This document shows, in pieces, positions 7,380 to 60,910 of a DNA stretch of 64,000 bases (position 1 is its first letter; every line of letters starts with the position of its first letter). The notes under the pieces were generated by a model. The model was not told the origin of the DNA and searched no databases. It saw only the letters and a list, made by a program, of their open reading frames with translations. A program made the position numbers and the translations under genes. Source of the stretch: Deltaproteobacteria bacterium (lineage in GTDB: Bacteria; SAR324; NAC60-12); NCBI GenBank assembly GCA_038133845.1, contig JAYPUA010000002.1, positions 61,912 through 125,911 of the forward strand, written 5' to 3'.

Positions 7380-7431
7380 ATTAACACTATCGCCAATCAA
7401 AACCGGGAGGTCGCCGCGGCTACGCGATCCG

Positions 7432-15756: not shown

Positions 15757-16619
15757 CGCTCCCGGAGCTTGGGATTGAGCGCGTCATTCAAGCCATCGCC
15801 GATCAGACTGATGCTGAGGACGGTGAGAAAGATCGCGATCCCAGGGAAGGTCACGACCCACCAGGCATCCAGAAAGTACTGACGTCCAGAACCGATCATC
15901 AGCCCCCAGCTCATCACGTTCGGATCTCCAAGTCCAAGGAAGCTCAGCCCGGCTTCAAAGAGGATCGCCACACCCGTGATCAGCGCGGCGTAAACGATCA
16001 GGGGCGGGGAGGCGTTGGGCAGGATCACGCGCCAGATGATCCGGGCATCGGAGGAGGAGATTGTCCGGGCAGCCTTGACGAAGTCCAGCTCCCGGATACG
16101 GAGGAACTCGGCTCGCGCCAGCCGGGCCTCTGCCGTCCAGCTGACCACTCCGATGGCGATCGTGATCGTGGTCAGGGTTGGAGAAAAAAGCATCACCAGC
16201 ACCATGGCCAAGAGCAGAGCTGGGAGCACCTGAAAGAACTCGGTGATGCGCATCAGAACCTCATCTACCCAGCCGCCGTAGTATCCGGCAAGGGCCCCGA
16301 TCGTTACCCCGATGAAGACGCTGATCAGTGCTGCAGTCACGCCCACCAGCAGCGTCGCCTTGCCCCCATGAATCAGTCCGGCCAGGATGTCTCGCCCTAA
16401 CTGGTCGGTTCCCAGAACCCAGCCCTCCTCTCCCGGGGGAGAGAGCGGGGCCCAGACCATCTCGAAGGGGTCGATCGGATAGAGCGACGGCCCAAGCAAC
16501 GTGGCCCCCATGATCAGCAGCAGCAGCAGCAGCCCGGCGACAGCGGTGTGGTTTCTGCGAAACATCCGCCATGCCTCACGGGAGGGGCTGTAGGATTCGA
16601 GCGGGGACGGAGAGTTCAT
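15753..16619 (-). CDS. ABC transporter permease (DppC/NikC-like)
   Basis: Start re-picked to MNSPSPLESY... at 16619; the 145 upstream residues in the track are Pro/Arg/Gly-rich and overlap the adjacent permease. Typical BPD-transporter EAA region. Confidence 0.8.
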   Translation of the reverse strand: MNSPSPLESYSPSREAWRMFRRNHTAVAGLLLLLLIMGATLLGPSLYPIDPFEMVWAPLSPPGEEGWVLGTDQLGRDILAGLIHGGKATLLVGVTAALISVFIGVTIGALAGYYGGWVDEVLMRITEFFQVLPALLLAMVLVMLFSPTLTTITIAIGVVSWTAEARLARAEFLRIRELDFVKAARTISSSDARIIWRVILPNASPPLIVYAALITGVAILFEAGLSFLGLGDPNVMSWGLMIGSGRQYFLDAWWVVTFPGIAIFLTVLSISLIGDGLNDALNPKLRER

Positions 16620-17587
16620 CGTTTCCGAATTCTGGGGTCGGCCACGCCGTAGGCCACGTCGGTGAGCAGGTTGGCCACAGTGACCATGAATGCCGAGAAG
16701 AAGAGGATTCCGAGCATGGTCGGGTAGTCGCGCCGGAGGATGGAGTCGAACGCCAAACTGCCCAGACCCGGCCAGTTGAAGACGGTTTCCACCAGGACTG
16801 CGCCGGCAAAGAGGTTCCCAAACTGCAGTCCGGCGGCGGTGATCACCGGGAGGATGGCGTTCCGGAGGCCGTGCTTGTAGACCACTCGATCTGCAGAGAG
16901 CCCCTTGGCGTGTGCTGTCCGGATGTAGTCGGCTCCAAGCACCTCCAGCATGCTCGCCCGGGCGAGGCGGCTGTATTGAGCGATGTAGATGATCGCCAGG
17001 GTGAACGCCGGGAGCACCAGGTGATGCAGAACGTCCCAGACCTGAATCCACCAAGAAGGATTCTTGAGCAGGATGTCATTCATTCCGGAGACCGGAAACC
17101 AGGGGAGCATCGAGGCGAACAGGATCAGCAGCACCAGCCCGGTCCAGAACACCGGAGCCGAGTAGCCAACCAGGGAAATGATGGTGGTGAAGTGGCTCAG
17201 GAGTCCATTGGGACGACGCGCTGCGACCACGCCCAGAAGCGTCCCGGTCACAATGCTCAGCAACGCTGCAGTGATCACCAGCACCAAGGTGGCGGGCAGT
17301 CGCTGACCGATCAGCCCAATCACCGAGGTGTTGAAGTAGTAGGAATATCCGAGATCCCCCTGAAGCACCTGTCCCAGGTAGCGCCCAAGTTGAATGTGAA
17401 AGGGCTGGTCCAGTCCGTACTGCTGCCGGATTGCCGCCAGGATCTCCTCCGTGGCTCCTCCCATCTCCCCGGCAATGACCTCCGCCGGATCTCCGGGCGC
17501 GAGGTGGATGAGGGTGAAGTTCAGCACCAAGACTGTGGCAAGAAGAAGCACAGCGTTCAGCACGCGTTTCAGCACCAACTGGAGCAT
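16616..17587 (-). CDS. ABC transporter permease (DppB/NikB-like)
   Basis: 323 aa, multiple TM segments, N-terminal MLQLVLKRVLNAVLLL typical of DppB. Confidence 0.85.
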   Translation of the reverse strand: MLQLVLKRVLNAVLLLATVLVLNFTLIHLAPGDPAEVIAGEMGGATEEILAAIRQQYGLDQPFHIQLGRYLGQVLQGDLGYSYYFNTSVIGLIGQRLPATLVLVITAALLSIVTGTLLGVVAARRPNGLLSHFTTIISLVGYSAPVFWTGLVLLILFASMLPWFPVSGMNDILLKNPSWWIQVWDVLHHLVLPAFTLAIIYIAQYSRLARASMLEVLGADYIRTAHAKGLSADRVVYKHGLRNAILPVITAAGLQFGNLFAGAVLVETVFNWPGLGSLAFDSILRRDYPTMLGILFFSAFMVTVANLLTDVAYGVADPRIRKR

Positions 17588-17648
17588 GAGGCGGTTCGTT
17601 CAGGGAGGGCCAGGACTTGACACAGGCGCAGCCCCGGAAGGCTGAGGT

Positions 17649-17672
17649 CCTCTCTCCGCAAAGGGAGAGAGG
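17649..17672 (-). promoter_or_regulatory. intercistronic stem-loop between the SBP gene and first permease gene
   Basis: cctctctccgcaaagggagagagg: perfect 9-bp stem with 6-nt loop, located between SBP stop (17681) and permease start (17587). Confidence 0.45.
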
Positions 17673-17680
17673 AGGTTGGG

Positions 17681-19264
17681 TCAGGGCTGCGACTCCCAGT
17701 AGACCTCATCCATCGGAGCCATGGTGCCCCAGATGGTGGTCGGGAGGTTGCGCAGGTTTTTGTGGTAGACCGTGTGGTACGGCAGGATGTTGATCCAGGC
17801 AACCGGAAGCTCGTCGGCAACGATCTGCTGGAACTCCTTGTAGAGCGCCTTGCGCTTGTTCATGTCGCTTTCCACAGCCGCCTGGCTGAGCAACTCATCC
17901 ACACGAGGATTGCTGTAGCTCTGGGTGTTCGACCAGATCACTCCCTTGCGGATGTTGCTGGAAATGTAGGTCCGGTGCACCCCAATGACCGGGTCCCCCC
18001 AGTTGAAGACAATGTCCATGCTCAGGTCAAAGTCGTGCCCGCCCACGCGCTTGGCCCAGGTCGGGAAGTCCGGAGAGGCGCGCAACTCGGCATTGATCCC
18101 AATCTTACGGAGTTGAGTCTTGACGTACTCGGCGACGTTCTTCTGCTGCTCGTCACTTCCCGGAATGTAATCGATCTGCAGCGAGAAGCGCATGCCATCG
18201 CCTTTCTTCTGCAGGCCTGCCTGATCCAGCAGGCTCTCAGCCTTCTTCAGGTCGACGTCGTATTTCTCCACATCTGCGGTGGCGTACGGGCTGTCCGGAT
18301 GAATCGGCCCGTAGATGCGGGTGGAAAATCCGCGATGGAGCGCCTTGGTGATGAAGTTGCGATCGACAGCATAGGAGATCGCCTGCCGGACGCGCTTGTC
18401 ATCGAACGGTTTCTTGGCGTGGTTGAACGCCAGCCAGTTCAAAGCCCCCACAGCCGCGTACCCATCAACCGTGGCCTCCAGGTGCGACTGCTTCTTCATC
18501 CGCTCAATGTCACGGACCGAGGCAGAAAACGGCCAGAGGTGCGCTTCCTGACGCTCCATGGAGAGCACGAGGCTGCTGGTGTCGCGGTTGATCCGGATGA
18601 TGATCTCGTCCAGGTAAGGCTTCCCCTGCATGAAGTAGTTCTCGTTGCGAGCGAGCCGAATGTACTCTCCGGGCTTCATCTCCACAAACTTGAACGGTCC
18701 AGAGCCTACCGGGTCCGCATTGCGCGGGTGCCCCTTGGGATCCTGGCCATCTCCATAGATGTGCTTGGGAATGACCGGAAGCAGCGCGGAGGACATGGCC
18801 AGCAGAATGGCCGGATGCGGCCTCTCCAGACGAATCACCGCGGTGTGGGTATCCGGTGTATCCACAGCGCTCACTGGAGCAAACATGGTCTGGAACGGGT
18901 GGTTCTGCTTGACCGTCATCAGAGAAAACGCCAAGTCTTCCGAGGTCACAGGCTTGCCGTCGTGAAAAGTCGCCTGCTTGTTCAGGTGGAGCGTCACACT
19001 CATGCCGTCGGCTGCAACCTCCCAGCGCTCGGCGAGGTAGGGCTGCGGGTTCCAGTTCTCATCATAGCGCAGAGGAGAGGCGAAGATCTGTGTCCCCGGA
19101 ACGGCTGTGGCAATGCCCGACTGCACAGCCGGGTTCAGATGTCGGGGGACCTGAGTCGACGCGATGATCAGAGTTCCTCCGGACTTCGGAGCCGCGCTCA
19201 AGCTTGCGGCAATCAGGGTCGAGGCAAGAACGCCTCCCAAAGCTTTTGAAAAGATTTTCAACAT
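17681..19264 (-). CDS. ABC transporter substrate-binding protein, family 5 (peptide/nickel)
   Basis: Start re-picked to MLKIFSKALGGVLASTLIAASLSAAP (signal peptide) at 19264, preceded by GGAGG; family-5 SBP length and motifs. Confidence 0.85.
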   Translation of the reverse strand: MLKIFSKALGGVLASTLIAASLSAAPKSGGTLIIASTQVPRHLNPAVQSGIATAVPGTQIFASPLRYDENWNPQPYLAERWEVAADGMSVTLHLNKQATFHDGKPVTSEDLAFSLMTVKQNHPFQTMFAPVSAVDTPDTHTAVIRLERPHPAILLAMSSALLPVIPKHIYGDGQDPKGHPRNADPVGSGPFKFVEMKPGEYIRLARNENYFMQGKPYLDEIIIRINRDTSSLVLSMERQEAHLWPFSASVRDIERMKKQSHLEATVDGYAAVGALNWLAFNHAKKPFDDKRVRQAISYAVDRNFITKALHRGFSTRIYGPIHPDSPYATADVEKYDVDLKKAESLLDQAGLQKKGDGMRFSLQIDYIPGSDEQQKNVAEYVKTQLRKIGINAELRASPDFPTWAKRVGGHDFDLSMDIVFNWGDPVIGVHRTYISSNIRKGVIWSNTQSYSNPRVDELLSQAAVESDMNKRKALYKEFQQIVADELPVAWINILPYHTVYHKNLRNLPTTIWGTMAPMDEVYWESQP

Positions 19265-19363
19265 GCCTAACCTCCAAATTCGGTGAAGAGTGGTCAAAAA
19301 ACGACCTCTTTGTAGTCCAAAGAATTACGGAAGTCGAGACAGAAAGTCTCAAATTTTCAATTT

Positions 19364-21114: not shown

Positions 21115-21143
21115 CAGGCCCCTGAAAGCTTTCAGCTGGCCTG
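21115..21143 (-). terminator. palindromic hairpin spanning the aspS stop codon
   Basis: caggcc agctgaaagctttcag gggcctg: inner perfect palindrome CTGAAAGCTTTCAG plus outer GC stem. Confidence 0.35.
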
Positions 21144-22916
21144 CGCCGAGGCCTTGACTCGGATGTGAAGTTCGTCCAGCTGTGACGTCTCCACTTCGGA
21201 GGGAGCATCGGTCATCAGGCAAGAGGCTCGCTGGGTTTTCGGGAAAGCGATCACGTCCCGGATCGAGTCGGTTTTCAGGAGGAACATCATGATGCGGTCG
21301 AACCCGAGGGCGATTCCTCCGTGAGGCGGGGCTCCGTAGGAGAGCGCCCTCATGAGGAACCCGAACTTCGTCTCAATCTCCTCATCGCTCAACTGGAGCA
21401 GTTGGAAGACCCGGTTTTGGATGTCCTGCCGGTGGATCCGGATGCTGCCGCCTCCGACCTCCACTCCGTTCAGGGCCACGTCGTAGGCCACAGAGCGGAT
21501 TTTTCCGGGGTCGCTTTCGGCATGTTGCTTCAGGTCGTCCAGGTTAGGCATGGTGAACGGATGGTGGGTGGAAGCCCAGCGCTGGTCGGTCTCGCTGTAC
21601 TCGAAGAGCGGAAAGTCCGTGATCCAGACAAACTTGTAGACGCTGTCGTCAACCAGACCGCGTCGGCGAGCAAGCTCCTTGCGCAAATTCCCCAAAGTGT
21701 CGTGGACGACCTTGGGCGTGTCTGCACAGAAGAGGACCAGGTCTCCGACGTTGAGCCCAACGCGGTCATTGAGTTGATCCTGAAGTTCTGCGCTGAAGAA
21801 CTTGGCAATTGGCGACTGCCAGCCGTCCGGGTTCCGCTTGATCCAGGCCATGCCCTTGGCTCCGTAAATTCGGGCAAAGTCCGTAAGGTCGTCCAGGTCC
21901 TTGCGGGAGAAGTCACTTCCTCCGGGAACGCAGATGGCCTTGACCAGCCCACCTTTGGCGATCACCTCGCCGAACACCTTCAGTTCGCTCTGGGCAGCAA
22001 TGTCGGAGACATCCTGCAGCTCCAGCCCGAAGCGCAGATCCGGAGCATCGGAGCCGAAGCGATCCATGGCCTCCTGGTAGCTCATGCGTGGGAAGGGGGT
22101 GGGGACCTCGACTTCGATGGTCTCCCGGAAGAGCCGAGCGAACATTCCTTCGATGATGCCGAAAATTTCCTCCGGGCGAGTGAAGCTCAACTCCAGGTCG
22201 ATTTGTGTGAACTCGGGCTGCCGGTTCCCACGCAGGTCCTCGTCACGAAAGCAGCGGGCGATCTGAATGTAGCGGTCAAAGCCGCTGACCATCAGCAACT
22301 GCTTGAACAACTGGGGAGACTGTGGCAGCGCGTAAAACATCCCCGGACTCACACGAGACGGGACCAGGTAGTCCCGCGCTCCTTCCGGAGTCGACTTGGT
22401 CAGGATCGGGGTCTCGACTTCAAAGAACCGCTGCTCACTCGTGAAGTAGTTCCGGACAATCTGCATCGCCTGTGAGCGGAGCATCAGGTTCTGCTGAAGC
22501 GACTCGTGGCGCAGATCAAGGAAGCGGTAGGTCAGTCGAATCTTTTCGTCCACCTCGTCCCGGTCTTCCAGCTGATAAGGCAGCGTCTGCGAGGGGTTGA
22601 GGAGCTCCAGCGTGTCCACAAGCACCTCGATCTCTCCGGTGGGCAGCTTCGGGTTGATGTTTCCCTCCAGGCGATGAGCCACCGTTCCGCTGACGGCCAA
22701 AACAAACTCGTTGCGGATGCGGTCGGCCTCCTGATGAGCGTCTGCGCTGATCTCCATCTTGAACACCACCTGGGTGATTCCGGTATAGTCCCGAAGATCG
22801 ACAAAGATCACGCCTCCGTGATCGCGACGGGTCTGACACCACCCGGCCAAGATGACTTTGTCACCAACATTTGCCGCTCTCAAATCTCCGCAGTAGTGCG
22901 TTCTCACCCAGTCCAT
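21132..22916 (-). CDS. aspS: aspartate--tRNA ligase
   Basis: 594 aa; class II aaRS motifs ([22 protein letters not shown]), N-terminal OB anticodon-binding domain. Confidence 0.95.
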
Positions 22917-22968
22917 GTTATTGCTGTTGTTTCAGATTTTCTCAAAAATACTGCCCAATGCAGAGGCC

Positions 22969-24165
22969 ATGAAAAACGTACAAACCTATCACATCATCTC
23001 GTTGTGCAACAAGGCAATTCTCCGGAAGGCCGGTGGGGTGCTTCGATCGGCAGCCTTCCTCGTTCTGTTCACCCCAGGCCTGCATGCTGTGGAAGGTCCA
23101 ACGCCACAGCAGGTCGCCGTGATGCAGGAGGAGCATCGGACCATGGGCGACTTGCGACATCGCCTGCGCTGGCTGCTTGAGCAGCAGGAGCAGGAAGACA
23201 CGCTGGGCGAGAGCGATGACGCCTTTCAGGATCTGCAGACTCTGGAGCAGTGGCTTGAGGAGTTGCGTCAAAACCCGGATGAAGAACTCAAGGATCAGGT
23301 GATGGAGATGCTCGCGGAGTTCGAGCAACAGCTTCAGGAGATGCTCCAGCAGCAGGAGGACCTTGCGGCGTTCCTGCCCCAGCCCCCTCAAGAGGCAGAA
23401 ACGCCTCAACTGCCCGTTGATTCACTCATGGAAGCTCTCAAGCAGCTGCTGGAGGAGAACCGGATTCAGGAGGCTCAGGAGTTGCTCAATCAGATGCTCT
23501 CGGCTCTGAACCAGCAACAGCAACAGCTCCAGCAACAGCTCCAGCAACACTATGAGGAGCGCTTCTCCGAGGCACAACGCCAACTGCAGGAACTCCAGCG
23601 TCAGCTCCAGCAGGCCATGCAGCAACAGCAGCAGGTCCAGCAGCAGCTCCAGCCTCATGCCGATCAGCAGAGCATGCCGCCGCAGGAACGCATGAGCGCC
23701 GAGGAACTGCAGCAGCGCATCAGTGAGATGATTCGGCAAATGCAGGAGATGCTGGCCAACCTCGACAGCAAACAGATGCTTGCGGGGTCTCAATCTGCAG
23801 AGTCGCTGATGCAGCAAGGGAGAGAATCATCCGAGCAGACCCAACAGTCGATCGGGCAGGGCCCCCCCGGAGAGGCGATGCAGGGAGCCAACCAGACTCA
23901 GCAGACTCTGGGACAGTTGCAGCAGAGCCTCTCGCAAATGCAACAGCAGGCTCAGCAGATGTCACGGCCGAACCTGGCTTCGCGAGCACGAAGGGAGACG
24001 CGAGAAGGGAGAGGGTATTGGTCTGAGAAAGGGATTCGGCCGCTGAAGTTCGATTACGATTTTGAGGCGAATCCGAGTTTCCGGGAGGAAATCATGAAGC
24101 GCAACCAGCAGGGCGGAGAAGGCACCCTGCGTCAGCAACGCTACTTGGAGGAGATCATCAAGTAG
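22969..24165 (+). CDS. Gln-rich low-complexity coiled-coil protein with N-terminal signal-like segment (hypothetical)
   Basis: Uninterrupted 416-codon frame; start chosen at MKNVQTYH (22969) because the ATG at 22915 overlaps the aspS start on the other strand; N-terminal RSAAFLVLFTPGLHAVEG hydrophobic stretch, then QQQLQQQLQQ repeats; AT-rich 5' end. Confidence 0.5.
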   Translation: MKNVQTYHIISLCNKAILRKAGGVLRSAAFLVLFTPGLHAVEGPTPQQVAVMQEEHRTMGDLRHRLRWLLEQQEQEDTLGESDDAFQDLQTLEQWLEELRQNPDEELKDQVMEMLAEFEQQLQEMLQQQEDLAAFLPQPPQEAETPQLPVDSLMEALKQLLEENRIQEAQELLNQMLSALNQQQQQLQQQLQQHYEERFSEAQRQLQELQRQLQQAMQQQQQVQQQLQPHADQQSMPPQERMSAEELQQRISEMIRQMQEMLANLDSKQMLAGSQSAESLMQQGRESSEQTQQSIGQGPPGEAMQGANQTQQTLGQLQQSLSQMQQQAQQMSRPNLASRARRETREGRGYWSEKGIRPLKFDYDFEANPSFREEIMKRNQQGGEGTLRQQRYLEEIIK

Positions 24166-27829: not shown

Positions 27830-30800
27830 TCAAGAGGGGTGTCCCCACCCTCCACCACCAGGGGTTTCGATCCGGATGCGATCTCCCGGACGGGCCTGGA
27901 TCTCGTTCTTTCCTCCGAGGTTCAGGGTCGGCCCTTGCTTGCGAAAGAACAGGTTGCGTCCGGCGCTTCCGGAGGCACCACCTTCCATTCCATAAGGGCG
28001 ATGGGTCCGACGTTCCGAGAGAATGGCCACGTTCAGCAGCTCAAGAAACTCCACCTCCCGGACCAGCCCATCCCCTCCGTTGAAGGCCCCGGAGCCTCCG
28101 GAGTTCTTGCGGAGAGAGAACTCCCTCAGCAGCACCGGATAGCGGCGTTCCAGAATCTCTGGATCCGTGATCCGAGTGTTGGTCATGTGGGTGTGGACCC
28201 CGGACTGTCCGTTCCAAGTGGGTCCGGCTCCGGCTCCGCCACCGATGGTCTCGTAGTAGCCGAAGCGCTCATTGCCAAAGGTGAAGTTGTTCATGCAGCC
28301 CTGAGACGCCGCACTGGCCCGGAAGGCCTTGAGGATCACGTCCGTGATGCGCTGAGAGGTCAGCACGTTCCCCCCCACCACGGCAGCATGTTCCGAGGGA
28401 GCCAGCAGGGAGCCCTCCGGGATGACGATGTCGATCGGGTTGAGACACCCCTGGTTGAGTGGAATTTCCTGCCGAATGAGACAGCGCAGGGCATAGAGCA
28501 CGGCAGAGTGCGAGACGGCCCGGGGGGCATTCAGGTTGCCCCAAAGCTCGGTACCGGTTCCCGTGAAGTCAAAGACGGCGCTGCCTTCCCTGCGGTCAAT
28601 GGTCAGAGTCAGGCAGACGGGAGAGCCATCGTCCAGGAACTCCTCCGCCTTCACCGAGCCGACCTCCGGGAGCCCTTCCCGGAGCGAAAGCTCCTGCAGC
28701 ATCGCCCGGACTGCCTCCTCAGCGTTGGTCTGGATGTGCTTCATGTAGGCCTGCACGACCTCCAGGGACCAGTAATCGACCATCTCCAGCAGCAGGTCGA
28801 TGCCCCGCTGATTGGCCGCGACCTGAGCCTTGAGGTCGGAGAGGTTGTCTGCCAGAAGACGGGTTCCGGAAATCGGAGCCTCTCCCGGTTGTCGGCTCAA
28901 GGTTGCAGGAGTTTGGAGCAGCCTGGTGATCCCGGCCTCGTTGAACACGCCGTCCTCCACCAGCTTGAAGCTCTTGATGCAGGCGCCCTCCTCGGCAAGC
29001 ACGCGCGAGAACGGCGGCATCGACCCGGGCGAGATGCCCCCGATGTCGGCGTGATGCCCTCGGCTGGCAACAAAGAAGATGGGCCGCCCGTCGCGCCATA
29101 CCGGCGTGATCACCGTGATGTCCGGGAGGTGACTCCCTCCGGCGATCGGGTGGTTGGTGACCAGGACATCTCCGGGACGCAGCCGTTCACCCTGCAGGCG
29201 TACTTGCTGACGCACGGCCTCGCTCATCGCCCCTAGGTGAACCGGCTGGTGAGGCGCGTTGGCGACCAGCCCTCCGGCCTCGTCAAAGATCGCGCAAGAG
29301 AAGTCCAGCCTCTCCTTGATGTTGGTGGAGATTGCCGTTCGCTGCAGTGTGCGCCCCATCTGCTCGGCAATCGACATGAAGAGGTTCCCAAAGATCGACA
29401 GCTGGATCGGGTCCAGGTCCGTGCCAACCTGCCGGATGCTGCGAGATTCCACGTGAATGAGGACATCTCCAAACTCGGTGACCTCTGCCCGGCATCCCGG
29501 CTCCACCAGAATGGTCGAGGTGTCCTGCATCAGGATGGCTGGCCCGGGGATTTCGTGTCCGTGGCAGAGATGCTCGGTCCGAAACAGCGGGGTGTCCTGC
29601 CAGCCGCCCTCGAAGTAGCAGCGGGTCGTGGTCTCCGAAACTGCCGGTCCCTGCGCCTCCGGGATGCGAAATTTGCGCAGCCCCGGAGATTGAGCCACGG
29701 CGCGGATTCGGACGTCGTCCACCAGAATGTCCCGGTCCAGCTCGAATCCGTACTCACGCCGGTAGATGCTCTGGAATTCTCTGGCATAGTCGCCATCCGG
29801 AGGCTCCGGAATCATCAGCGTGGTGTCTGTCCCGCGGTAGCGCAGGTTGAGGTACCTGCGAACGTCGATCTGCTCGAGTCGGGCTCCCTGGTCCCGCAGC
29901 TCGCCTTCTGCCTGACGGGCCAGGCGGGCCAGGCGGGCCTGCAGCTCCGGGAGCGCCTCCTCGCCCAGCGCCACTGCGGCCGGTTCCTGTTGCTCCACAG
30001 CGATGTCAGCGAGCCCCATTCCGTATGCCGAGAGGATCCCGGCAAAGCGGTGCACAAAGACCGTCCCGATGCCCAGCTCCCGCGCCAGCGCGCAGGCGTG
30101 CTGCCCTCCGGCCCCTCCAAAGCAGGCGAGGACGTGCTCCTGGATATCGAACCCGCGCATCACCGAGACCTCGCGGATCGGCCGGACCATGGTCTCGTTG
30201 GCGACCCGGAGAAAGCCCAGGGCGACTTCCTCCAGACTCATCTCCGGGAGACCTCGCTCTTGGGCGTGGGTGTTGAGGGCCTCGGTCAGCTCCTGCATCG
30301 CCTTCCGGGAGCCCTCGACATCCAGCGGCTGATCCTCCGTGGAACCGAAGATCTGCGGAAAGTAGTCCGGATGCAGGCGTCCGAGGACCAGGTTGGCGTC
30401 GGTCACCGCCAGGTGCCCTTGCTTGCGGTAGCACACCGGACCGGGATGGGCTCCGGCAGATTCCGGGCCGACCTCAAAGCGTCCGTTGCGAAAGAACAGC
30501 CGTGAACCACCTCCGGCCGCTACTGTCCGGATGTCCATCTGAGGCGCCTGGATCCGGACTCCGGCGGTTTCAGTTTCGTGTGTCAGCTCCCAGTCGCCTC
30601 CAAAACGCGAGACGTCCGTGGAGGTGCCTCCCATGTCAAATCCGATGACGGGCTTGCCGAGGTCGGTTGTCAGGGCATATCCCACGACGCCCCCGGCGGG
30701 TCCGGAGAGGATCGCGTTGCTGCCCTTGAAGCGGTCGGCATCGGTCAGCCCTCCGTCGGACTGCATGAACAGCAGCCGGGTTTCTCCGAGGTGATCGGAA

Positions 30801-31585
30801 AATCCTGCACGGAACCCGTCCAGGTAGGTCCGGATGTGCGGGGTGAGGTAGGCATCCACGGTGGTCGTGTCTCCGCGGGCCACCATCTTCACCATCGGCA
30901 TCACCTCGTGGGAGAGGGAGACCTGCGAGAAGCCGATCTCCCGGGCGATGGCTCCGACCTGACGCTCGTGCTCGGTAAAGGCGTAGGCATGCAGAAAGAC
31001 CACGGCCACGGCCCGGATGCCTGCGGCATAAGCCTGTTGCAGCTGCTCGCGCACCCGCTCCCGGTCCAGCCGCTCCAGCACCAGGAACTCCTCTCCGGTC
31101 GTGCCGGAGACTCCGGGCTCCACATCGTCCGGACGACGCAGGCGTACCCGCTCCTCCACCTCGATCACCTGCTCGTAAAGCAACTCCGGCTTGCGGATCT
31201 CCAGGTCAAAGATCCGCGGGCGGTTTTGGTTTCCAATCCGGAGCAGGTCTCCAAACCCCCGTGTGGTCACCAGCACCGTGCGGGCGCCTTTGCGCTCCAG
31301 CAGCGCGTTGGTGGCCACAGTGGTGCCCATCCGGATCCAGTCGATGCCTTCCGAAGAGAAGCTCTCCTTTGGGAGCTCGCGTCCCGTGACGTCTTCCAGA
31401 ATGCGGCGGATGCCTTCACGCGGGGCGTCCGGATAGTTCGCCGGGTCTTCGGAGAGCAGCTTCACGATGCGAAAGCCCGGCTCTCCCGGGACTTCGGCAT
31501 AGACATCCGTGAAGGTTCCCCCGCGGTCAATCGAGAAGCGAAGCTGCGGGAGGGGGGAGAGGGGCAGGTGTGGGGCGGGTGTCAT
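27830..31585 (-). CDS. 5-oxoprolinase (ATP-hydrolysing), fused hydantoinase A-B type (OPLAH-like)
   Basis: 1251 aa; N-terminal half HyuA-like ([20 protein letters not shown]), C-terminal half HyuB-like ([20 protein letters not shown]). Confidence 0.9.
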
Positions 31586-31619: not shown

Positions 31620-32126
31620 TCAGCGCTTCATCAGCATGGTGACCTGCTCCTGAGGAACCAGCCGTGTCTTGTGAAACACGGTCCCCTTGGAGTCGATCAG
31701 GACGTTGATGGGAGGACGCAGGGGCGTGAAGTGGTAGTCCAGGCTGGCGATGTCGTCTTCATCGAGCAAGACCAGAAAGGGCAGGTCGAACTTCTTCTGG
31801 ACGGCCCGGACCTTGGGCACCTCATCCTGAGAGGTGATGTTGATCGCCACGATCTTCAGTCCTTGTTCTGCATATTTCCGGTGCAGCTCCTTGAGTACGG
31901 GCAACTCCCGTAGGCAGATGCTTCACCAGCTGGCCCAGAACATCAGCAGCGTGGGCTGCTTGCCGATGAACCCTTCGGTTTCGACCAGGGCGCCGTCCAG
32001 GCTCTTCAAGGTGAAGTGCGGAGCCTCCTCTCCGGGGTGAACTTCTGCCCAAACTGGGGTCCCCAGCCCGGAAAGTAAGAGCAGAGTGAGTGAAATTCCA
32101 AACAATCTCATGTGTGCTCCTTTCAT
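31620..32126 (-). CDS. TlpA/ResA-like periplasmic thiol:disulfide oxidoreductase with in-frame TGA at the active site (candidate selenoprotein, U-S-I-C; alternatively a nonsense pseudogene)
   Basis: Two track ORFs (31923..32126 and 31620..31904) are in the same frame, separated only by TGA at 31923-31925. Joined translation reads signal peptide ...PTLLMFWASW-[TGA]-SICLRELPVLKELHRKYAEQGLKIVAINIT..., i.e. the canonical redoxin FW/NFWASWCxxC motif with TGA at the first Cys position. Confidence 0.5.
31894..31913 (-). promoter_or_regulatory. SECIS-like hairpin 11 nt downstream of the in-frame TGA
   Basis: mRNA CUACGGG-AGUUG-CCCGUAG: 6-7 bp stem, 5-nt loop containing GUU, loop G about 21 nt from UGA (within the bacterial SECIS window). 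Confidence 0.35.
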
Positions 32127-32131: not shown

Positions 32132-32902
32132 TTATGCCGTAGCGGCCTCCAACTCCTCATAAAGCTGCTGAAACTCCTTGCTGACCTTGTGTCCGGGGTC
32201 CATGAGAACCAGCGGCTGGGATTCCCCGTGAGATTCCCGGACCTTGACGGAGGAGGAGAGGTAGGTCTTCAGAACGGGAAGTTCATCGGCAAGCAGCTCC
32301 TCCACAATCTGCACCGGGAACTTCGCTCGTGACTGGAACTGATTGACGATGATGCCTTCGACAGTGAGGTCCCGGTTGTGGTCCAGCCGGATCTCGTTGA
32401 CGTTCTCCAGCAGAGCGTAGAGGGCATTCTTGGAGAAGCTGTCGCAGTCGAAGGGGATGAGGCAGCGCGGGCAGGCGATGAGCGCCGAGCGTGTGAAGAA
32501 GCCCAGGGCTGGAGGGGTATCGATGAAGATCCGGTCGTAGTCCAGGTCATCCAGCGCTTCACGCAGCTTGAACATCTTGTAGCGAGACTCCAGCTTGCCC
32601 TGCAACTCTTCCATCTCCGGATGTGCGGGCATCAACTCCAGGTTGGCAAAGGGAGTGAAGTGGACAAACTCGCTGGGATGCGGAGCCCGGAACATGAAGC
32701 TGAGCATGCTGTCGAAGAAGTGGAACACGGTCTGCTCCTGAGGAATCCCGACCGAGCCCATCAGGTATTGGGTGGTGTTGGCCTGGGGATCAAGATCGAT
32801 CACCAGGGTACGGTGCCCCTGAACAGCGCTCAGGGCGGCGAGATTGCAGGTGATTGTGGACTTCCCCACCCCGCCTTTTTTGTTGAATACGACCCGACGC
32901 AT
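32132..32902 (-). CDS. ParA/MinD-family P-loop ATPase (orphan, no parB/parS seen)
   Basis: Start re-picked to [18 protein letters not shown] (deviant Walker A KGGVGKS), SD GGGAGAA upstream; ends 6 nt before the redoxin gene. Confidence 0.8.
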
Positions 32903-33005
32903 CGGTTCTCCCGGTTCGTGTTGTAGAGTGCTGGATCCAGAGGAAATGATACGACACTCGGGGGGAGTTGCCAGAGAGAAATCCGAGACGCTCCGGAATC
33001 CGGAG

Positions 33006-34562
33006 TCAGGGACGCTGAGGCTTAGGCCCCTTTCCGGAGCCACGTGCGCGTGACTTGCTCAGGGCGGAGGTCCGGCGCTTGCGCTTGAGGTATTCCGGAT
33101 CTCGGGTGAGGTTTCGGGAGAGGTAGACGTGCTCGTTGGGGCTACCAAAGCCTTCCTGCTTGAAGAAACGCAACGCCTTCTCATTGTCGGCCTCCGTGTC
33201 GATCAGGATCATCCGGGCCCCTTCGTCAATGAAGCGCTCCGTGATCTTGTCCAGCAGCTTGCGACCGACACCCTTGCTCTGCCAGTTCGGATGCACGCCG
33301 AGCCAGTCCAGCCAGCCGTACACCCAGGCGCTCCGCCGCTTTTCCATCAGAGAGCCCAGGGCGAACCCCACGATCTCCTTCTCGGAGGCCTCGGCGACCC
33401 AGCAAAACTCGCCATCGGTGTTGAACATGTTGATGATGTCGGTCTCGTCCCAGGTCCGGTAGAGGTTGGGCCAGTCTTCTGCGGTATAGAGCCGCTCTCC
33501 GAGTGCATAGACGCGGTGCAGGTCCTCCAACTCCATCTCCCGGATCTCCAGGCTTCCAGAAGGTTTGCGGACACTGGGGGTGGAGAGCGCTGCCGGTGCA
33601 GCCGCTCCGGACCGAGACGGGACCTGGCGAAGAAGCTGCCGCAGCTCCTGAGCCACCCAGAGCGACGCCTCCCGGGCCTGAGGCAGGAGGTCGCGCTGGT
33701 TGATGAAGCCGTGGACCATGCCCTCCCAGTTGCGCTCGACCACCGGCACCCCAGAGTCTCTCAGGCGCTTCGCATACGCCAGTCCTTCATCACGCAACGG
33801 GTCGTAACCGGCCACCAGCATCAGCGCCGGGGCCACACCAGTGGCTGTCTCGGCAAAGAGCACCGACGCCTCCGGGTGACGGCGGTCCACGCCTTCCGGG
33901 AGGTACTGGGCAATGAACCAGCTCATCGCGTCGCGAGTGAGCCCAAAGCCTTCCGCACAGGACTGGTACGAGGGCAGGCTCTGGGTCAGGTCGGTGACCG
34001 GATAGATCAGCACCTGAGCGACAAGGTCCAAGAGTTGGCGATCTCTGGCCCGCAAAGCGACCGCGGCGGCCAGGTTGCCTCCGGCGCTGTCGCCTCCCAC
34101 CATGAGCCGCTGTGGATCCCCTCCAAGAAGCGAGGCGTTCTCGGCGACCCAGCAGGTCGCCGCCCAGCAGTCCTCGACTCCTGCAGGAAAGCGGTGCTCC
34201 GGAGCGAGTCGGTAGTCCACGGACACCACAAGAACACCGGCCTCCTGACAGACTGCCCGGCAGAACCGATCCACGCCATCCAGACTGCCAATCACCCATC
34301 CGCCTCCGTGGAAGAAGACGAGCACCGGGAGCGGCTCCTCCTTCGCTCCTGCCGGATGATAGATCCGGAGCGGGATCAGGCCCGCCGGTCCTTCGGCCTG
34401 ACGCTGCTCCACGGAGCCGACGGGCTCCGGATCATTCAGCTGCCAGCGCCGGCTGGTCTCTTCGGAGACGCGCCGGGCCTCCTCAGGAGAGAGGGTGGTG
34501 AGGTCCGGCAGGTTCGCCGAGGCGCGCAGTTGCAGGTAGAGTTGGGCTTCCGGAGCGAGCAT
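33006..34562 (-). CDS. two-domain fusion: HSL-type alpha/beta hydrolase (esterase/lipase) + C-terminal GNAT acetyltransferase
   Basis: [11 protein letters not shown] (HGGG oxyanion motif) and GDSAGGNLA (GDSAG nucleophile elbow) in the N-terminal 320 aa; C-terminal 170 aa with GNAT motif A ([10 protein letters not shown]); basic C-terminal tail. Confidence 0.75.
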
Positions 34563-43159: not shown

Positions 43160-43768
43160 ATGACGGATCTTTTCACAGAAAAAGCCCAGGATTGGGACAC
43201 CCGCACTCCGGTCCAACTCATCTCCAGCGCTGTCGGCGCGACCCTCCTGGAGCAGATCGCGCTGCGTCCGGACATGGAGGTCATGGATTTTGGAGCCGGG
43301 ACCGGGCTCATCAGCTCTCACGTCGCCAGCCAAGTTGCCCGGATTGTGGCCGTCGACGTCTCTGCATCCATGCTGGAGAAGCTCCGGGAGAAGCCTGAGC
43401 TTCAGGGGAAGGTGGAGACCGTCTGTCAAGACATTGTGGACCAGCCGCTTCAGCGCTCGTTCGACCTGATCATGAGCGCGATGGCTCTGCACCACGTGGA
43501 AGACACGGCCCGGCTCTTTCAGCGCTTTGCCGAGAACCTCCGCCCCGGAGGACAGGTCGCGCTTGCAGACCTCGACACGGAGGACGGGACCTTTCACGCG
43601 CAGGGTAACGAGGGCGTCTTTCACTTCGGGTTCGACCGGGCCCACCTCAGTGAGCTGTTGACGGACAACGGCTTCACCGACATCCAGTTTCAGACTCCTC
43701 ACGTGGTACGCCGCGAAGCCGAAGGCCGCGAGTACCCGCTCTTCTTCGTGCGTGCGACCCGTACCTGA
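43160..43768 (+). CDS. class I SAM-dependent methyltransferase
   Basis: Start re-picked to MTDLFTEKAQDWD; motif I VMDFGAGTGLIS. Confidence 0.7.
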   Translation: MTDLFTEKAQDWDTRTPVQLISSAVGATLLEQIALRPDMEVMDFGAGTGLISSHVASQVARIVAVDVSASMLEKLREKPELQGKVETVCQDIVDQPLQRSFDLIMSAMALHHVEDTARLFQRFAENLRPGGQVALADLDTEDGTFHAQGNEGVFHFGFDRAHLSELLTDNGFTDIQFQTPHVVRREAEGREYPLFFVRATRT

Positions 43769-43916
43769 CCTGCACTTTTTCAAGCCTCACCCCCCTTTGG
43801 AGGAGGCTTCGTCCGGATATCGTCTTGAAACCGGGGCGAATAAGGATAAGACTGCGAGTTGCTCAGGGGGAGTATGCTGTCTGCGCAGCCCCCCACCACC
43901 CCGATTCCCCGCTCGC

Positions 43917-45152
43917 ATGAACTCCCGTTCCGAATTTGAAGCCCTGGACGCTCAGGATGAGTTGGCCCCGTGGCGTGACGCCTTTGAGTTGCCCGAAGGA
44001 GTGATCTATCTGGACGGCAACTCCCTGGGGCCTCTGCCCAAGGCGGTTGTACAGAGAGTCCAGCAGGTGGTGCAGGAGGAGTGGGGCCGGGAGTTGATCC
44101 GGAGTTGGAACACGGCGGACTGGCTGCACCTGCCGCAACGGGTCGGGGCGAGAATCGCCCGACTGATTGGTGCGGAACCGGACGAGGTGATCGCTGCCGA
44201 CTCGACCTCGGTGAACCTGTTCAAGGTCCTCGCTGCGGCTCTGGAAATGTGCCCCGGACGGACGGAGGTGGTGAGTGAGTCCGGGAACTTCCCCACCGAC
44301 CTATACATTGCGGAAGGGGTGGTGCATCACGCTTCAGGGGAAAGGGTCCTGCGGCTGGTTTCATCAGATCAGGTCCTGGAGGCCTTGAGCTCGAACACGG
44401 CCGTGCTGCTGCTCACCCATGTGGATTATCGCTCCGGGCAGATGCATGCGATGCAGGAGGTCACGCAGCGAGCCCACGAGGTCGGGGCGTTGGTCATCTG
44501 GGACCTGTCTCACAGCGCCGGAGCGATGCCGGTCGATTTGAACGCGTGTGGGGCGGACTTTGCCATCGGCTGCGGCTACAAGTACCTCAACGGCGGTCCG
44601 GGGGCCCCGGCCTTTCTCTTTGTGGCGCGACGCCATCAAGAGGCCGCGCGGCAGCCGCTTTCCGGGTGGCTGGGACACGCTCAACCCTTCGCCTTTGAAT
44701 CAGGATATACTCCAGCACCCGGAGTGGATCGCTTCCTCTGTGGCACGCCCGGAGTCCTGGGGATGAGTGCCTTGGAGACGGCGCTGGAGGTCTTTGAGTC
44801 GGTCGACCTGCAGGTGGTGCGGAGCAAGTCCCTGCTGCTCAGCCAACACTTTATGGAGTTGGTCGAGTCCCGTTGTGCCGGATTCGGGCTGGAGCTGGCG
44901 ACCCCGCGTGAGGCAAGGCTGCGCGGAAGCCAAGTCAGCTTCGCACATCCGGAAGCCTTTGCCGTGATGCGGGCCCTCATCGCCCAAGGCGTGATCGGGG
45001 ACTTCCGAGCTCCAAACCTGATGCGCTTTGGCTTCACTCCGCTCTACACCCGCTTCACCGATGTGTGGGATGCCGTGGAGGCACTCCGCGAAATCCTTCA
45101 GGAGCGGCGCTGGGACTCCCCGGAGTTTCAGCAGCGTACGGCGGTCACCTGA
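43917..45152 (+). CDS. kynU: kynureninase
   Basis: Start re-picked to [39 protein letters not shown], a close match to the conserved kynureninase N-terminus; PLP-fold. Confidence 0.85.
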
Positions 45153-45192
45153 CTCCTGCGTTCCCGCCCTTCTCCTCATCCCACGGTTTTTC

Positions 45193-46023
45193 ATGCCCCA
45201 TCCCTCCAAAACGGAAGGCGCTCGGCTCGACTTCTCCGAAGCCATGAGCTACGGAGACTACCTGGCACTTGACCAGGTCCTCAGCGCTCAAAATCTGCTG
45301 ACCGAGGATCACAACGAGATGCTGTTCGTGATCATCCATCAGACCAGCGAGCTGTGGATGAAGCTGATGTTGCACGAGCTGCAGGAAGCCCGAGAGAACA
45401 TCCGGACCACCAACCTGCGTCCGGCCTTCAAGATGCTCGCCCGGGTGTCCCGGATCCTGGAGCAACTGCTTCAGTCCTGGAGCGTACTGGCGACCCTCAC
45501 CCCATCGGAGTACTCCCGGTTTCGCCCGGCGCTGGGCAACTCCTCCGGCTTTCAGTCCTACCAGTACCGGATGATCGAGTTTGCGCTGGGCAACAAGAAC
45601 GCCATCATGGTGCGGCCGCATGCGCATCGGGAAGACCTGAAGGCGATGGTCGAGTCCGAGTTGCAGCAGCCCTCCCTGTACGATGAGGCCATCCGTCTGC
45701 TCGCCCGCAGAGGCTTCCCGCTAGATCAGGAGTGTGTGGAGCGGGACTGGAGCCAGCCGTATGTGCACCAGGAGTCCGTGCAGGCCAGCTGGCTACAGGT
45801 CTACAGCGACCCGGAGCGGCACTGGGACCTGTACGAGCTGGCGGAGAAGCTGGTGGACCTGGAGGACTCCTTCCGGCAGTGGCGCTTTCGGCACCTCACC
45901 ACGGTGGAGCGGGTGATCGGGTTCAAGCAGGGGACGGGGGGCACCTCTGGAGTGAAGTACCTGAAGAAGATGCTGGAGACGGTTCTCTTTCCGGAGCTTT
46001 GGCAGGTACGGACCAGCCTTTAG
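45193..46023 (+). CDS. kynA: tryptophan 2,3-dioxygenase
   Basis: Start re-picked to MPHPSK at 45193; [16 protein letters not shown] and [12 protein letters not shown] haem-TDO motifs. Confidence 0.85.
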
Positions 46024-58031: not shown

Positions 58032-58139
58032 AGTATGGAGGCTCTTTCCAGACAGGGTCCCCCATCAAGGATCCTCAATGCTCTCATGACTCCGGAAGTT
58101 CATCCGGAGCCATGGACTCACTCTCAATCAGGAGAAGTT

Positions 58140-59777: not shown

Positions 59778-59846
59778 CGCCCCTCCTCCTCCTGAGCTAG
59801 CATCCGGACTGAATGTCGGGGGATATCCCTCCGAGCGGTCCTGACG

Positions 59847-60909: not shown

Positions 60910-60910
60910 G

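What the first reader, a model, noticed from the sequence alone, without database searches (positions are those of the whole stretch)
31620..32126. Candidate selenoprotein: periplasmic TlpA-like redoxin with TGA at the first active-site Cys (W-U-S-I-C) and a SECIS-like hairpin 11 nt downstream
Two same-frame ORFs are separated only by TGA 31923-31925. Read through, the protein is a textbook signal-peptide redoxin: ...KQPTLLMFWASW-[U]-SICLRELPVLKELHRKYAEQGLKIVAINIT. TGA sits exactly where the N-terminal Cys of the WCxxC motif belongs, the classic position for Sec in thioredoxin-fold selenoproteins. On the mRNA a hairpin CUACGGG-AGUUG-CCCGUAG starts 11 nt after UGA, with a G/U-containing apical loop at the distance expected of a bacterial SECIS. 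No selA/selB/selD lie in this window, so the alternative is a recent Cys(TGC/TGT)-to-stop pseudogene.
Basis: partly seen in the sequence, partly recalled or inferred. Interest (0 to 1): 0.7.

Follow-up and report, generated by a model that had tools for sequence, protein, structure and literature searches.

The report
Exported selenocysteine TlpA/ResA-like redoxin gene
The in-frame TGA very probably encodes selenocysteine at the active site of a secreted thiol-disulfide reductase, so this is a real gene that annotation pipelines cut in two, but it belongs to a kind of bacterial selenoprotein known since 2004-2005.

Summary
One 163-codon gene (window 32111..31620, minus strand) encodes a signal-peptide TlpA/ResA-like redoxin. 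A TGA (31923-31925) sits where homologues have the first Cys of WCxxC.

It is not a pseudogene or a sequencing error:
- The same TGA occurs in near-identical contigs, in two sister-species MAGs (78-82% aa identity over the whole protein) and in four more distant lineages (33-48% for the two aligned; GC 41-56%).
- 112 other motif matches in the fetched loci have Cys at that position.
- dN/dS after the TGA is 0.07-0.19.
- TGA is otherwise the normal stop (25 of 37 genes).

A hairpin starts 11 nt after the UGA (6-7 bp; loop AGUUG, GUU or GGU; UGA-to-loop distance 16-17 nt).
- It is present in every Sec form.
- Four of its seven pairs show compensatory double changes.
- Synonymous change is suppressed around it.
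- It is degraded in a 78%-identical Cys orthologue.
- It fits the published bacterial SECIS consensus.

Not shown: selA/B/C/D are not in the window, and the rest of the genome could not be searched.

The host is related to SAR324 bacteria. UxxC redoxin selenoproteins (Prx-like/TlpA-like) are established families, so this is a new, unannotated member of a known kind.

The parts
31620..32111 (-). Whole selenoprotein gene: 163 codons including one in-frame TGA (Sec63); its own stop is TGA at 31620-31622.
   Evidence: Pfam AhpC-TSA/Redoxin/Thioredoxin_8 hits. Best solved relatives are ResA 4nmu and 1st9. Start confirmed by alignment with orthologues L003 and L004.
32117..32122 (-). Shine-Dalgarno AAGGAG, 5 nt upstream of ATG 32111.
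   Evidence: Read directly. It lies inside the ORF extension that starts at ATG 32126, which argues against that start.
32046..32111 (-). Predicted Sec-type signal peptide MRLFGISLTLLLLSGLGTPVWA, with cleavage after VWA (inferred).
   Evidence: Sequence reading only: positive n-region, hydrophobic core, small-x-small c-region. No predictor was available. All Sec orthologues have an equivalent hydrophobic N-terminus.
31923..31925 (-). Sec codon UGA (residue 63).
   Evidence: Aligned with the first Cys of WCxxC in 112 other motif matches in the fetched loci and in ResA. Conserved as TGA in L001-L004, L049-L054, L089, L098 and L135-L137.
31914..31925 (-). Active-site motif U-S-I-C (UxxC).
   Evidence: C66 is invariant. 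E69 and P71 (C-x-x-E-x-P) are invariant in all Sec forms.
31896..31912 (-). SECIS apical hairpin UACGGG-AGUUG-CCCGUA. Stem starts at +11 after UGA and the loop starts at +17.
   Evidence: Of 7 aligned pairs, 87.5% of cells are paired, 4 pairs have compensatory double changes, and 0 of 500 shuffles reach the covariation score. G21 and U23 of the loop are invariant.
31878..31929 (-). Extended SECIS helix (lower stems flanking the apical hairpin), partly conserved.
   Evidence: MFE fold -24.7 kcal/mol, z = -2.3. The basal stem CUGGUG/CACCGG becomes CACCAG in L003/L004, turning U-G into U-A. RNAalifold gives a lower stem at columns 6-10/38-42, i.e. 31920..31884. This is weaker evidence than for the apical hairpin.
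32132..33043 (-). Upstream ParA/MinD-like P-loop ATPase gene; its stop lies 20 nt before the redoxin start. It is a conserved neighbour and possibly co-transcribed. The true start is probably internal, since it was called as 256 aa in L001.
   Evidence: Pfam AAA_31/CbiA. The order esterase-GNAT, ParA-like, redoxin is also seen in L001, L002 and L127-L130. A functional link was not tested.

Best explanation
The gene encodes an exported TlpA/ResA-like thiol-disulfide oxidoreductase whose attacking active-site residue is selenocysteine (W-U-S-I-C).

Proposed mechanism:
- When the ribosome reaches UGA-63, the mRNA hairpin has its loop 16-17 nt downstream and presents a G-U-containing apical loop. 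It recruits SelB-GTP-Sec-tRNASec, which out-competes RF2 and inserts Sec.
- The same nucleotides also encode L-R-E-L-P-V, so they serve as both codons and RNA structure.
- The 163-aa precursor is exported through the Sec translocon and its signal peptide is cut after VWA.
- Outside the cytoplasm, the selenolate of U63 attacks a substrate disulfide (or another oxidised thiol). C66 resolves the mixed selenenylsulfide.
- The resulting U63-C66 bond is re-reduced by a membrane electron shuttle of the CcdA/DsbD type.

Shown here: the conserved UGA at the Cys position, purifying selection beyond it, and a covarying hairpin specific to the Sec forms that fits the bacterial SECIS consensus.

Inferred: actual Sec insertion, export, the substrate and the reductant.
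For: 1. TGA at the Cys column. 112 other motif matches in the fetched loci read WCxxC; 12 loci read W-TGA-xxC, and three more Sec loci came later. ResA structures align their first Cys to it.

2. Not an error or a one-off. The identical TGA is in 4 near-identical contigs from independent assemblies. It is also in sister-species MAGs L003 and L004 (82% and 78% aa identity over the whole protein; 86% and 83% over the matched segment; AspRS 88-89%). It is in L137, L135/136, L051-54 (48%) and L089/98 (33-36%), from genomes of 41-56% GC.

3. The sequence downstream is translated. dN/dS after the TGA is 0.14, 0.19 and 0.07 in the three pairwise comparisons, with dS of 0.6-0.8.

4. RNA constraint. 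In the 26 codons around the UGA, dS is about 0.14 against 0.75-2.1 in the flanking coding stretches (Fisher p about 0.002).

5. The hairpin is in the same register in every Sec lineage. Four of 7 pairs show compensatory double changes (U-A to G-C, A-U to G-C, C-G to G-C, G-C to A-U). 87.5% of cells are paired, against 36-61% when the partner is slid. 0 of 500 shuffles reach the score. RNAalifold finds the same helix on its own.

6. The hairpin is specific to Sec forms. Only 8 of 83 unique Cys homologues have any stem of 6 bp or more in that zone, against 5 of 5 Sec lineages (p = 3e-5). The Cys orthologue P0152/L138 is 78% identical to L089, yet its stem is broken by synonymous changes (-3.3 vs -7.0 kcal/mol).

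7. It fits the bSECIS consensus quoted in PMC13188914: a G in the first two loop positions followed by G or U, and a UGA-to-loop distance of 16-37 nt. Here the loops are AGUUG, GUU and GGU and the distance is 16-17 nt.

8. UGA is otherwise a stop. 25 of 37 confident genes end in TGA, including this gene, and this is the only in-frame TGA among them.
Against: - No tRNA-Sec, selA, selB or selD was found in the 64-kb window, in about 9 kb of extension beyond its ends, or in any fetched locus. The rest of the genome could not be searched.
- No second selenoprotein gene was seen in the window. The [NiFe]-hydrogenase large subunit and the CobW-like gene both use Cys.
- Within the closest clade (window, L003, L004) the apical hairpin is invariant. 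All the covariation therefore comes from only about 5 lineages.
- Some stem positions are also constrained by the conserved E-x-P peptide motif.
- There is no experimental evidence of selenium incorporation.
- The signal peptide was judged by eye only.
Confidence: 0.88

Rival explanations
1. UGA-63 is read through without selenocysteine. A near-cognate or suppressor tRNA inserts Trp, Cys or Arg, and the downstream hairpin merely slows the ribosome or hinders RF2.
For: The Sec machinery was not found in any sequence available here. Downstream structures can stimulate read-through in general (established knowledge).
Against: - The UGA replaces precisely the catalytic Cys of a redox motif. Only Cys or Sec would work there, and a plain TGC/TGT would serve better than leaky read-through.
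- The hairpin matches SECIS-specific features: a G-U loop 16-17 nt from UGA (PMC13188914).
- The same arrangement defines established UxxC selenoprotein families (PMC1088965, PMC9312934).
- Relatives of this lineage carry SelD. Two SAR324 single-cell genomes are listed as SelD-containing in PMC5029168.
Confidence: 0.06
2. The gene is a pseudogene: a recent Cys (TGC/TGT) to TGA nonsense mutation in a decaying redoxin gene.
For: A single-base change from TGC or TGT gives TGA. Annotation pipelines call two fragments.
Against: - The TGA is conserved in at least 5 lineages, down to 33% identity among those aligned.
- dN/dS after the stop is 0.07-0.19 while dS is 0.6-0.8.
- There are no frameshifts or further stops.
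- The hairpin covaries.
Confidence: 0.02
3. Two separate small proteins are made: translation terminates at UGA-63 and re-initiates at TTG 31904 (or the ATG in other lineages). The thioredoxin fold would be split at the active site.
For: Gene callers find a start codon shortly after the TGA in each lineage.
Against: - The called start positions differ between lineages: codon 70 here, the M of C-M-R-E in L051/L135, and much later in L137. None has a ribosome-binding site.
- The split would separate U/C63 and C66 from the rest of helix 1 and leave neither half with a complete fold (alignment to ResA).
- Residues between the TGA and the called starts (S-I-C-L-R-E-L) are conserved as protein.
Confidence: 0.02
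4. The TGA is a sequencing or assembly artefact, or UGA is reassigned in this organism (genetic code 4 or 25).
For: None beyond the bare presence of an in-frame TGA.
Against: - The TGA is identical in independent assemblies from JGI, ENA, Logan and NCBI.
- TGA terminates 25 of 37 confident genes, and there is one in-frame TGA against 237 TGG codons.
Confidence: 0.01

Closest known systems
Prx-like thiol:disulfide oxidoreductase selenoproteins (PF00578, UxxC/UxxU). First predicted in the 2004 'prokaryotic selenoproteome' study and listed in PMC9312934 and PMC13188914; 22 sequences in the Sargasso Sea set (PMC1088965).
   Same: The best Pfam domain is the same (AhpC-TSA PF00578). Sec is at the first position of a thioredoxin-like UxxC motif rather than the peroxiredoxin TxxU. 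A SECIS hairpin lies directly downstream, and Cys homologues are widespread.
   Different: This protein scores at least as well against ResA/TlpA-type models. It may therefore belong instead to the cd02966 group below.
Thiol-disulfide isomerase-like selenoprotein (cd02966 TlpA-like, UxxC) from the Sargasso Sea study (PMC1088965; PMC13188914 Table 1).
   Same: It is a TlpA-like thioredoxin-fold protein with a UxxC motif. It is marine or estuarine in origin and known only from environmental sequence.
   Different: Only four sequences were described, and none could be compared here. CDD membership was not testable with the tools at hand.
ResA, TlpA, CcmG/DsbE and StoA: Cys-containing extracytoplasmic thiol-disulfide reductases (PDB 4nmu, 1st9, 1jfu, 2b1k).
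   Same: The fold and the motif W-C-x-x-C-x-x-E-x-P match, as does the later invariant Pro (likely the cis-Pro). All have an N-terminal export or anchor segment.
   Different: Sec replaces the nucleophilic Cys. The protein scores far below the NCBIfam cut-offs for ResA (80 vs 170 bits), DsbE and TlpA. No ccm, ccdA/dsbD or sco genes lie nearby, so the substrate is unknown.
[quoted passage not shown]
   Same: It is also a ResA-like selenoprotein, and it shares the W-A-x-x-U context.
   Different: The motif here is U-x-x-C, not U-G-C. The score is 41 bits against a cut-off of 300, and the length is 163 aa against about 354 aa. It is not a member.
Escherichia coli fdhF/fdnG SECIS, the model bacterial SECIS.
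   Same: It is a coding-region hairpin just 3' of the UGA. The SelB-binding upper stem-loop starts about 11 nt after the UGA, and its apical loop carries G-U. (This rests on my own knowledge of the Bock and Engelberg-Kulka work; the consensus itself is quoted in PMC13188914.)
   Different: The sequence is different. The apical stem has no evident bulged U. SelB binding has not been tested.

Membership tests
Bacterial selenoprotein gene (Sec-UGA plus bSECIS) | In-frame UGA aligned with Cys in homologues | tested here: met
   112 CxxC against 12 TGA-xxC motif matches among the fetched loci, plus L135-L137. ResA's first Cys aligns to it.
Bacterial selenoprotein gene (Sec-UGA plus bSECIS) | The reading frame downstream of the UGA is conserved as protein | tested here: met
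   dN/dS after the TGA is 0.07-0.19 in three pairwise comparisons. The frames are intact in all 8 distinct Sec sequences.
Bacterial selenoprotein gene (Sec-UGA plus bSECIS) | Stem-loop immediately 3' of the UGA; small apical loop with G in its first two positions; UGA-to-loop distance of 16-37 nt (consensus quoted in PMC13188914) | tested here: met
   Loops are AGUUG, GUU and GGU and the distance is 16-17 nt. Four of 7 pairs show compensatory changes. RNAalifold agrees.
Bacterial selenoprotein gene (Sec-UGA plus bSECIS) | selA, selB, selC (tRNA-Sec) and selD present in the same genome | not testable with these tools
   They are absent from the window and the fetched flanks.
Bacterial selenoprotein gene (Sec-UGA plus bSECIS) | Selenium demonstrably incorporated (75Se or mass spectrometry) | not testable with these tools
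   This needs an experiment.
TlpA/ResA-like thioredoxin-fold oxidoreductases (Pfam AhpC-TSA PF00578 / Redoxin PF08534) | Domain score above the Pfam gathering threshold | tested here: met
   AhpC-TSA 71.3 bits (GA 26), Redoxin 68.6 (GA 26.6), Thioredoxin_8 43.3 (GA 27).
TlpA/ResA-like thioredoxin-fold oxidoreductases (Pfam AhpC-TSA PF00578 / Redoxin PF08534) | W-C-x-x-C active site followed by a conserved Glu and Pro; a later invariant Pro (cis-Pro loop) | tested here: met
   W62-U63-x-x-C66, E69, P71 and P134 are invariant in the 6 aligned Sec forms. They align with ResA's WCxxCxxExP. The cis conformation is inferred.
TlpA/ResA-like thioredoxin-fold oxidoreductases (Pfam AhpC-TSA PF00578 / Redoxin PF08534) | N-terminal signal peptide or membrane anchor (extracytoplasmic location) | tested here: inconclusive
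   A hydrophobic N-terminus with a VWA/E site is seen in all orthologues. No signal-peptide predictor was available.
ResA proper (NCBIfam NF002854), DsbE (TIGR00385), TlpA (NF047696) | Score above the curated cut-off | tested here: not met
   79.7 vs 170 bits, 50.2 vs 123 bits and 43.5 vs 230 bits. It resembles these proteins but is not an equivalog of any of them.
Prx-like thiol:disulfide oxidoreductase selenoprotein family (as defined in PMC9312934: PF00578 plus UxxC/UxxU) | PF00578 domain with Sec in a UxxC motif | tested here: met
   This is the operational definition used by the reviews.
Prx-like thiol:disulfide oxidoreductase selenoprotein family (as defined in PMC9312934: PF00578 plus UxxC/UxxU) | Sequence relatedness to the reference member WP_010940744.1 | not tested
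   The reference sequence was not retrievable with the tools.
WAxxUGC ResA-like selenoproteins (NF041054) | UGC motif and a score of at least 300 bits | tested here: not met
   41 bits; the motif here is U-S-I-C.

The most novel reading that the evidence does not exclude
This gene and its orthologues would be the first firm selenoprotein genes in the SAR324-related lineage. In that case these abundant ocean and estuary bacteria have a working Sec-decoding system that places a selenol catalyst in the periplasm.

The only comparative survey in the searched library that mentions SAR324 listed two SAR324 single-cell genomes as 'orphan SelD', with no selenoproteins and no Sec machinery (PMC5029168). 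This finding would change that picture. It would also mean the Sec form is an old, vertically kept feature of a TlpA-like subfamily spanning genomes of 41-62% GC, rather than a set of scattered recent Cys-to-Sec switches.
Probability: 0.4. Interest if true: 0.4.

Novelty: new member of a known kind. Interest (0 to 1): 0.3.

Why it matters
1. Annotation. Every public gene call seen for this gene and its orthologues splits it into two meaningless fragments (59-62 aa, plus 77, 88, 94 or 96 aa). The alignment and SECIS model derived here would allow correct annotation.

2. Biology. It adds a well-supported exported UxxC selenoprotein to a SAR324-related lineage for which the literature found here records only 'orphan SelD'. 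That implies a selenium requirement for envelope redox chemistry in these bacteria.

3. Method. The close Sec/Cys pair (L089 against P0152, 78% identical) shows how a few synonymous changes build or erase a SECIS on top of a conserved E-x-P peptide.

None of this changes what is known about how selenoproteins work.

Tried and rejected
- A word-indexed protein search with the single read-through sequence returned only the 94-aa fragment of the same organism. A profile of six Sec forms was needed to reach further.
It was therefore run with the 100 residues after the TGA. Its truncated hits, P0004 and P0009, led to two further Sec lineages.
- Rfam at gathering threshold found nothing in the window. 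No match to any Rfam family, tRNA-Sec included, reached threshold.
- Sec machinery was looked for in five ways: ARAGORN on the window and on 19 loci; motif regexes for SelB, SelD and SelA; Pfam on about 48 window ORFs; and contig extensions beyond both window ends. All were negative, but together they cover well under 2% of a genome.
- Synteny from AspRS was tried as a way to reach more orthologues. The redoxin is not near AspRS in the sister MAGs. The attempt did show, however, that L003 and L004 belong to MAGs whose AspRS is 88-89% identical to the window's.
- A second selenoprotein was sought in the window by a coding-potential scan of all in-frame TGAs. Only the target is convincing. The hydrogenase large subunit (DPCISC) and the CobW-like protein (GCICC) use Cys.
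- Considered and rejected: pseudogene, sequencing error, UGA reassignment and split gene (see the rival explanations).

Full report
**1. What is in the sequence**

On the minus strand an ATG at 32111 is preceded by AAGGAG. It opens a frame that runs to a TGA stop at 31620-31622 and contains a single in-frame TGA at 31923-31925.
- The local peptide is ...KQPTLLMFWASW-[TGA]-SICLRELPVLKELH...
- With Cys put in place of the stop, the 163-aa product matches Pfam AhpC-TSA (71 bits), Redoxin (69 bits) and Thioredoxin_8 (43 bits), all above gathering score.
- Its best solved relatives are ResA from Bacillus (4nmu, 1st9), followed by StoA, TlpA and CcmG/DsbE. The TGA aligns with the first Cys of their W-C-x-x-C motif.
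- The N-terminus MRLFGISLTLLLLSGLGTPVWA/EV looks like a Sec-type signal peptide. This was judged by eye.

- The hairpin is 6 bp, UACGGG-AGUUG-CCCGUA (31912..31896). The proposed seventh pair is actually C.C.
- ATG 32126 is unlikely to be the start, because the Shine-Dalgarno sequence lies inside that extension and the orthologues start at the aligned ATG.

**2. Not an error, not a reassigned codon**

The same TGA is found in four near-identical contigs assembled independently: L001, L002, L049 and L050. In the window, 25 of 37 Pfam-supported genes end in TGA, including this gene itself. The only in-frame TGA among them is this one, against 237 TGG codons. UGA is therefore an ordinary stop in this organism, and any recoding must depend on a local signal.

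**3. Not a pseudogene**

A scan of one genome per species found two orthologues with TGA at the identical codon. These are L003 and L004 (82% and 78% aa identity over the whole protein; 86% and 83% over the matched segment). They come from MAGs GCA_965662235.1 and GCA_038150265.1, whose AspRS is 88-89% identical to the window's, so they are sister species.
- Synonymous divergence is high (dS 0.76-0.98 gene-wide).
- dN/dS after the TGA is nevertheless only 0.14, 0.19 and 0.07 in the three comparisons, much the same as before it (0.14, 0.25, 0.06).

A metagenome scan, together with truncated hits from an exhaustive protein search, added four more distant Sec forms:

| Loci | Identity to window | Motif | GC |
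|---|---|---|---|
| L051-54 | 48% | W-U-T-R-C | 41% |
| L135/136 | not computed | W-U-T-T-C | 56% |
| L137 | not computed | W-U-S-I-C | 55% |
| L089/98 | 33-36% | W-U-M-S-C | 46% |

All have intact frames and hydrophobic N-termini. The 112 other motif matches in the fetched loci have Cys at that column.

**4. The hairpin is a conserved, covarying RNA element specific to the Sec forms**

- In every Sec sequence a 6-7 bp stem starts 10-11 nt after the UGA, in the same codon register.
- In the 8-sequence alignment A6, 87.5% of cells in the 7-pair helix are paired, against 36-61% when the 3' partners are slid by 1-3 columns.
- Four pairs carry compensatory double changes: 14-30 U-A to G-C, 15-29 A-U to G-C (via G-U), 16-28 C-G to G-C, and 17-27 G-C to A-U.
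- None of 500 column shuffles reaches the covariation score.
- RNAalifold, given no structure, predicts the same helix plus a weaker lower stem.
- Among the three close species the hairpin is invariant, and synonymous change is suppressed. dS is about 0.14 in the 26 codons round the UGA, against 0.75-2.1 in the flanking coding stretches (Fisher p about 0.002).
- As a control, only 8 of 83 unique Cys homologues have any stem of 6 bp or more in that zone, against 5 of 5 Sec lineages (p = 3e-5).
- The Cys orthologue P0152/L138 is 78% identical to L089. It keeps the peptide E-E-V-P-L, but synonymous differences break the stem (-3.3 vs -7.0 kcal/mol).
- The loops (AGUUG, GUU, GGU) always have G in position 1 or 2 followed by U or G, and the UGA-to-loop distance is 16-17 nt. 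This satisfies the bacterial SECIS consensus as quoted in PMC13188914 (G in the first two loop positions; 16-37 nt).

**5. What could not be shown**

The window contains no tRNA gene, no Rfam hit at gathering score, and no SelA, SelB or SelD domain among about 48 ORFs scanned.
- Extending beyond both window ends added about 9 kb and found nothing.
- ARAGORN found no tRNA gene of any kind in 19 related loci.
- No second selenoprotein gene is present in the window. The hydrogenase large subunit and the CobW-like gene use Cys.

The presence of the Sec machinery is thus inferred from the gene's own properties, not observed.

**6. Host and context**

The window's AspRS is 84% identical to proteins named 'SAR324 cluster bacterium', 'Deltaproteobacteria bacterium' and 'Candidatus Lambdaproteobacteria'. 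The organism is therefore a high-GC (about 61%) relative of SAR324.
- PMC5029168, the one paper in the searched library that mentions both SAR324 and selenoproteins, lists two SAR324 single-cell genomes among 'orphan SelD' organisms. This shows that SelD occurs in the group. It also suggests that the rest of the trait was missed because those genomes are incomplete.
- The gene order esterase-GNAT fusion, ParA-like ATPase, redoxin is conserved with L003's genome. The downstream neighbour differs.
- No ccm, ccdA/dsbD or sco genes lie nearby, so the substrate is unknown.

**7. Mechanism**

Shown by the analysis above: the conserved UGA at the Cys position, purifying selection beyond it, and the covarying Sec-specific hairpin.

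Inferred:
- SelB-GTP-Sec-tRNASec binds the apical G-U loop as the ribosome approaches. It delivers Sec to UGA-63 in competition with RF2.
- The precursor is exported and its signal peptide removed.
- The U63 selenolate attacks substrate disulfides, and C66 resolves the intermediate.
- A CcdA/DsbD-type shuttle re-reduces the active site.

**8. Comparison with what is known**

UxxC redoxin selenoproteins are long established by computation. The 'Prx-like thiol:disulfide oxidoreductase' family (PF00578, UxxC/UxxU) was found in 28 organisms in PMC5029168 and as 22 sequences in the Sargasso Sea set (PMC1088965). [quoted passage not shown]
- This gene meets the operational definition of the first family (domain plus motif).
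- It fails the NCBIfam cut-offs for ResA, DsbE, TlpA and the WAxxUGC family.
- It is therefore a new member of a known kind that public records leave unannotated. It is called there as two fragments, named 'peroxiredoxin' at best.

**9. Verdict**

My confidence that it is a genuine selenoprotein gene with a functional SECIS is about 0.88. Novelty is low to moderate and interest is about 0.3. The main value lies in annotation and in the hint that SAR324-related bacteria use selenocysteine.

Noticed in passing
L001 8334-8825; L002 3002-3493; L127 9785-10267; L135 295-783; L054 1207-1491: Every public gene call seen for this gene and its orthologues splits it at the TGA into an N-terminal fragment (59-62 aa, no Pfam hit) and a C-terminal fragment (77, 88, 94 or 96 aa, weak AhpC-TSA, named 'peroxiredoxin' at best). 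No source annotates it as a selenoprotein.
   Followed up: yes
L089 / L098 versus L138 1501-2067 (P0152): This is a close Sec/Cys pair: W-U-M-S-C against W-C-L-G-C at 78% identity. The homologues of this 188-aa type are mostly Cys forms, and some are named TlpA family [Syntrophaceae / Thermodesulfobacteriota]. In the Cys form the hairpin is degraded by synonymous changes. This suggests a recent Sec/Cys switch in that lineage.
   Followed up: partly
L045 and L055 (Cys homologues): Two Cys-containing homologues carry a hairpin of the same type and register as the Sec forms: TGAGGA-GAT-TCCTCA and CGCCGGG-AGCT-CCCGGTG. They could be relics of a former SECIS or a pre-adaptation arising from the E-x-P codons.
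   Followed up: no
window 32132-34562 (-); L127 7318-9733: The order esterase(Abhydrolase_3)-GNAT fusion, then ParA/MinD-like ATPase, then redoxin is conserved between the window and the sister-species MAG. The ParA-like stop lies only 20 nt before the redoxin start. A functional link is unknown.
   Followed up: partly
window 6345-10477 (+): A four-gene cluster on the plus strand looks like a soluble group-3 [NiFe]-hydrogenase: Fer4_22, NAD_binding_1/DHODB_Fe-S_bind, Oxidored_q6 and the large subunit PF00374 (assigned from L140 annotation). The large subunit ends in DPCISCSTH, so it is the Cys form, not [NiFeSe]. The longer minus-strand ORFs here gave no Pfam hits and are probably spurious.
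   Followed up: partly
window 11370-12353 (-): This is a CobW/HypB/UreG-family GTPase with a GCICC motif (Cys). A CobW-related selenoprotein family exists (NF041053 in PMC13188914), but this copy is not a Sec form.
   Followed up: yes
window 21132-22916 (-) and whole window: AspRS is 84% identical to proteins from SAR324 cluster MAGs, although the window is about 61% GC. PMC5029168 lists two SAR324 single-cell genomes as 'orphan SelD' organisms. The selenoprotein found here suggests the lineage has the full Sec trait.
   Followed up: partly
window 22915-24165 (+) and TGA 23422-23424 (-): A 416-aa ORF has no Pfam hit. On its antisense strand lies the only other in-frame TGA with coding-like statistics on both sides. 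That is probably an artefact of a compositionally biased gene.
   Followed up: no
L137 261-662: A CMD-domain gene (PF02627) lies about 2 kb upstream of the Sec redoxin in L137. CMD-like proteins are another known CxxU selenoprotein family. Whether this copy has Sec or Cys was not checked.
   Followed up: no
window 43752-46023 (+); 1330-3429 (-) and 27830-31585 (-): Kynureninase and tryptophan 2,3-dioxygenase genes are adjacent, forming a kynurenine pathway. There are two separate hydantoinase/oxoprolinase loci, and two Opp/Dpp-type peptide ABC transporter clusters (13939-19297 and 58035-63381).
   Followed up: no
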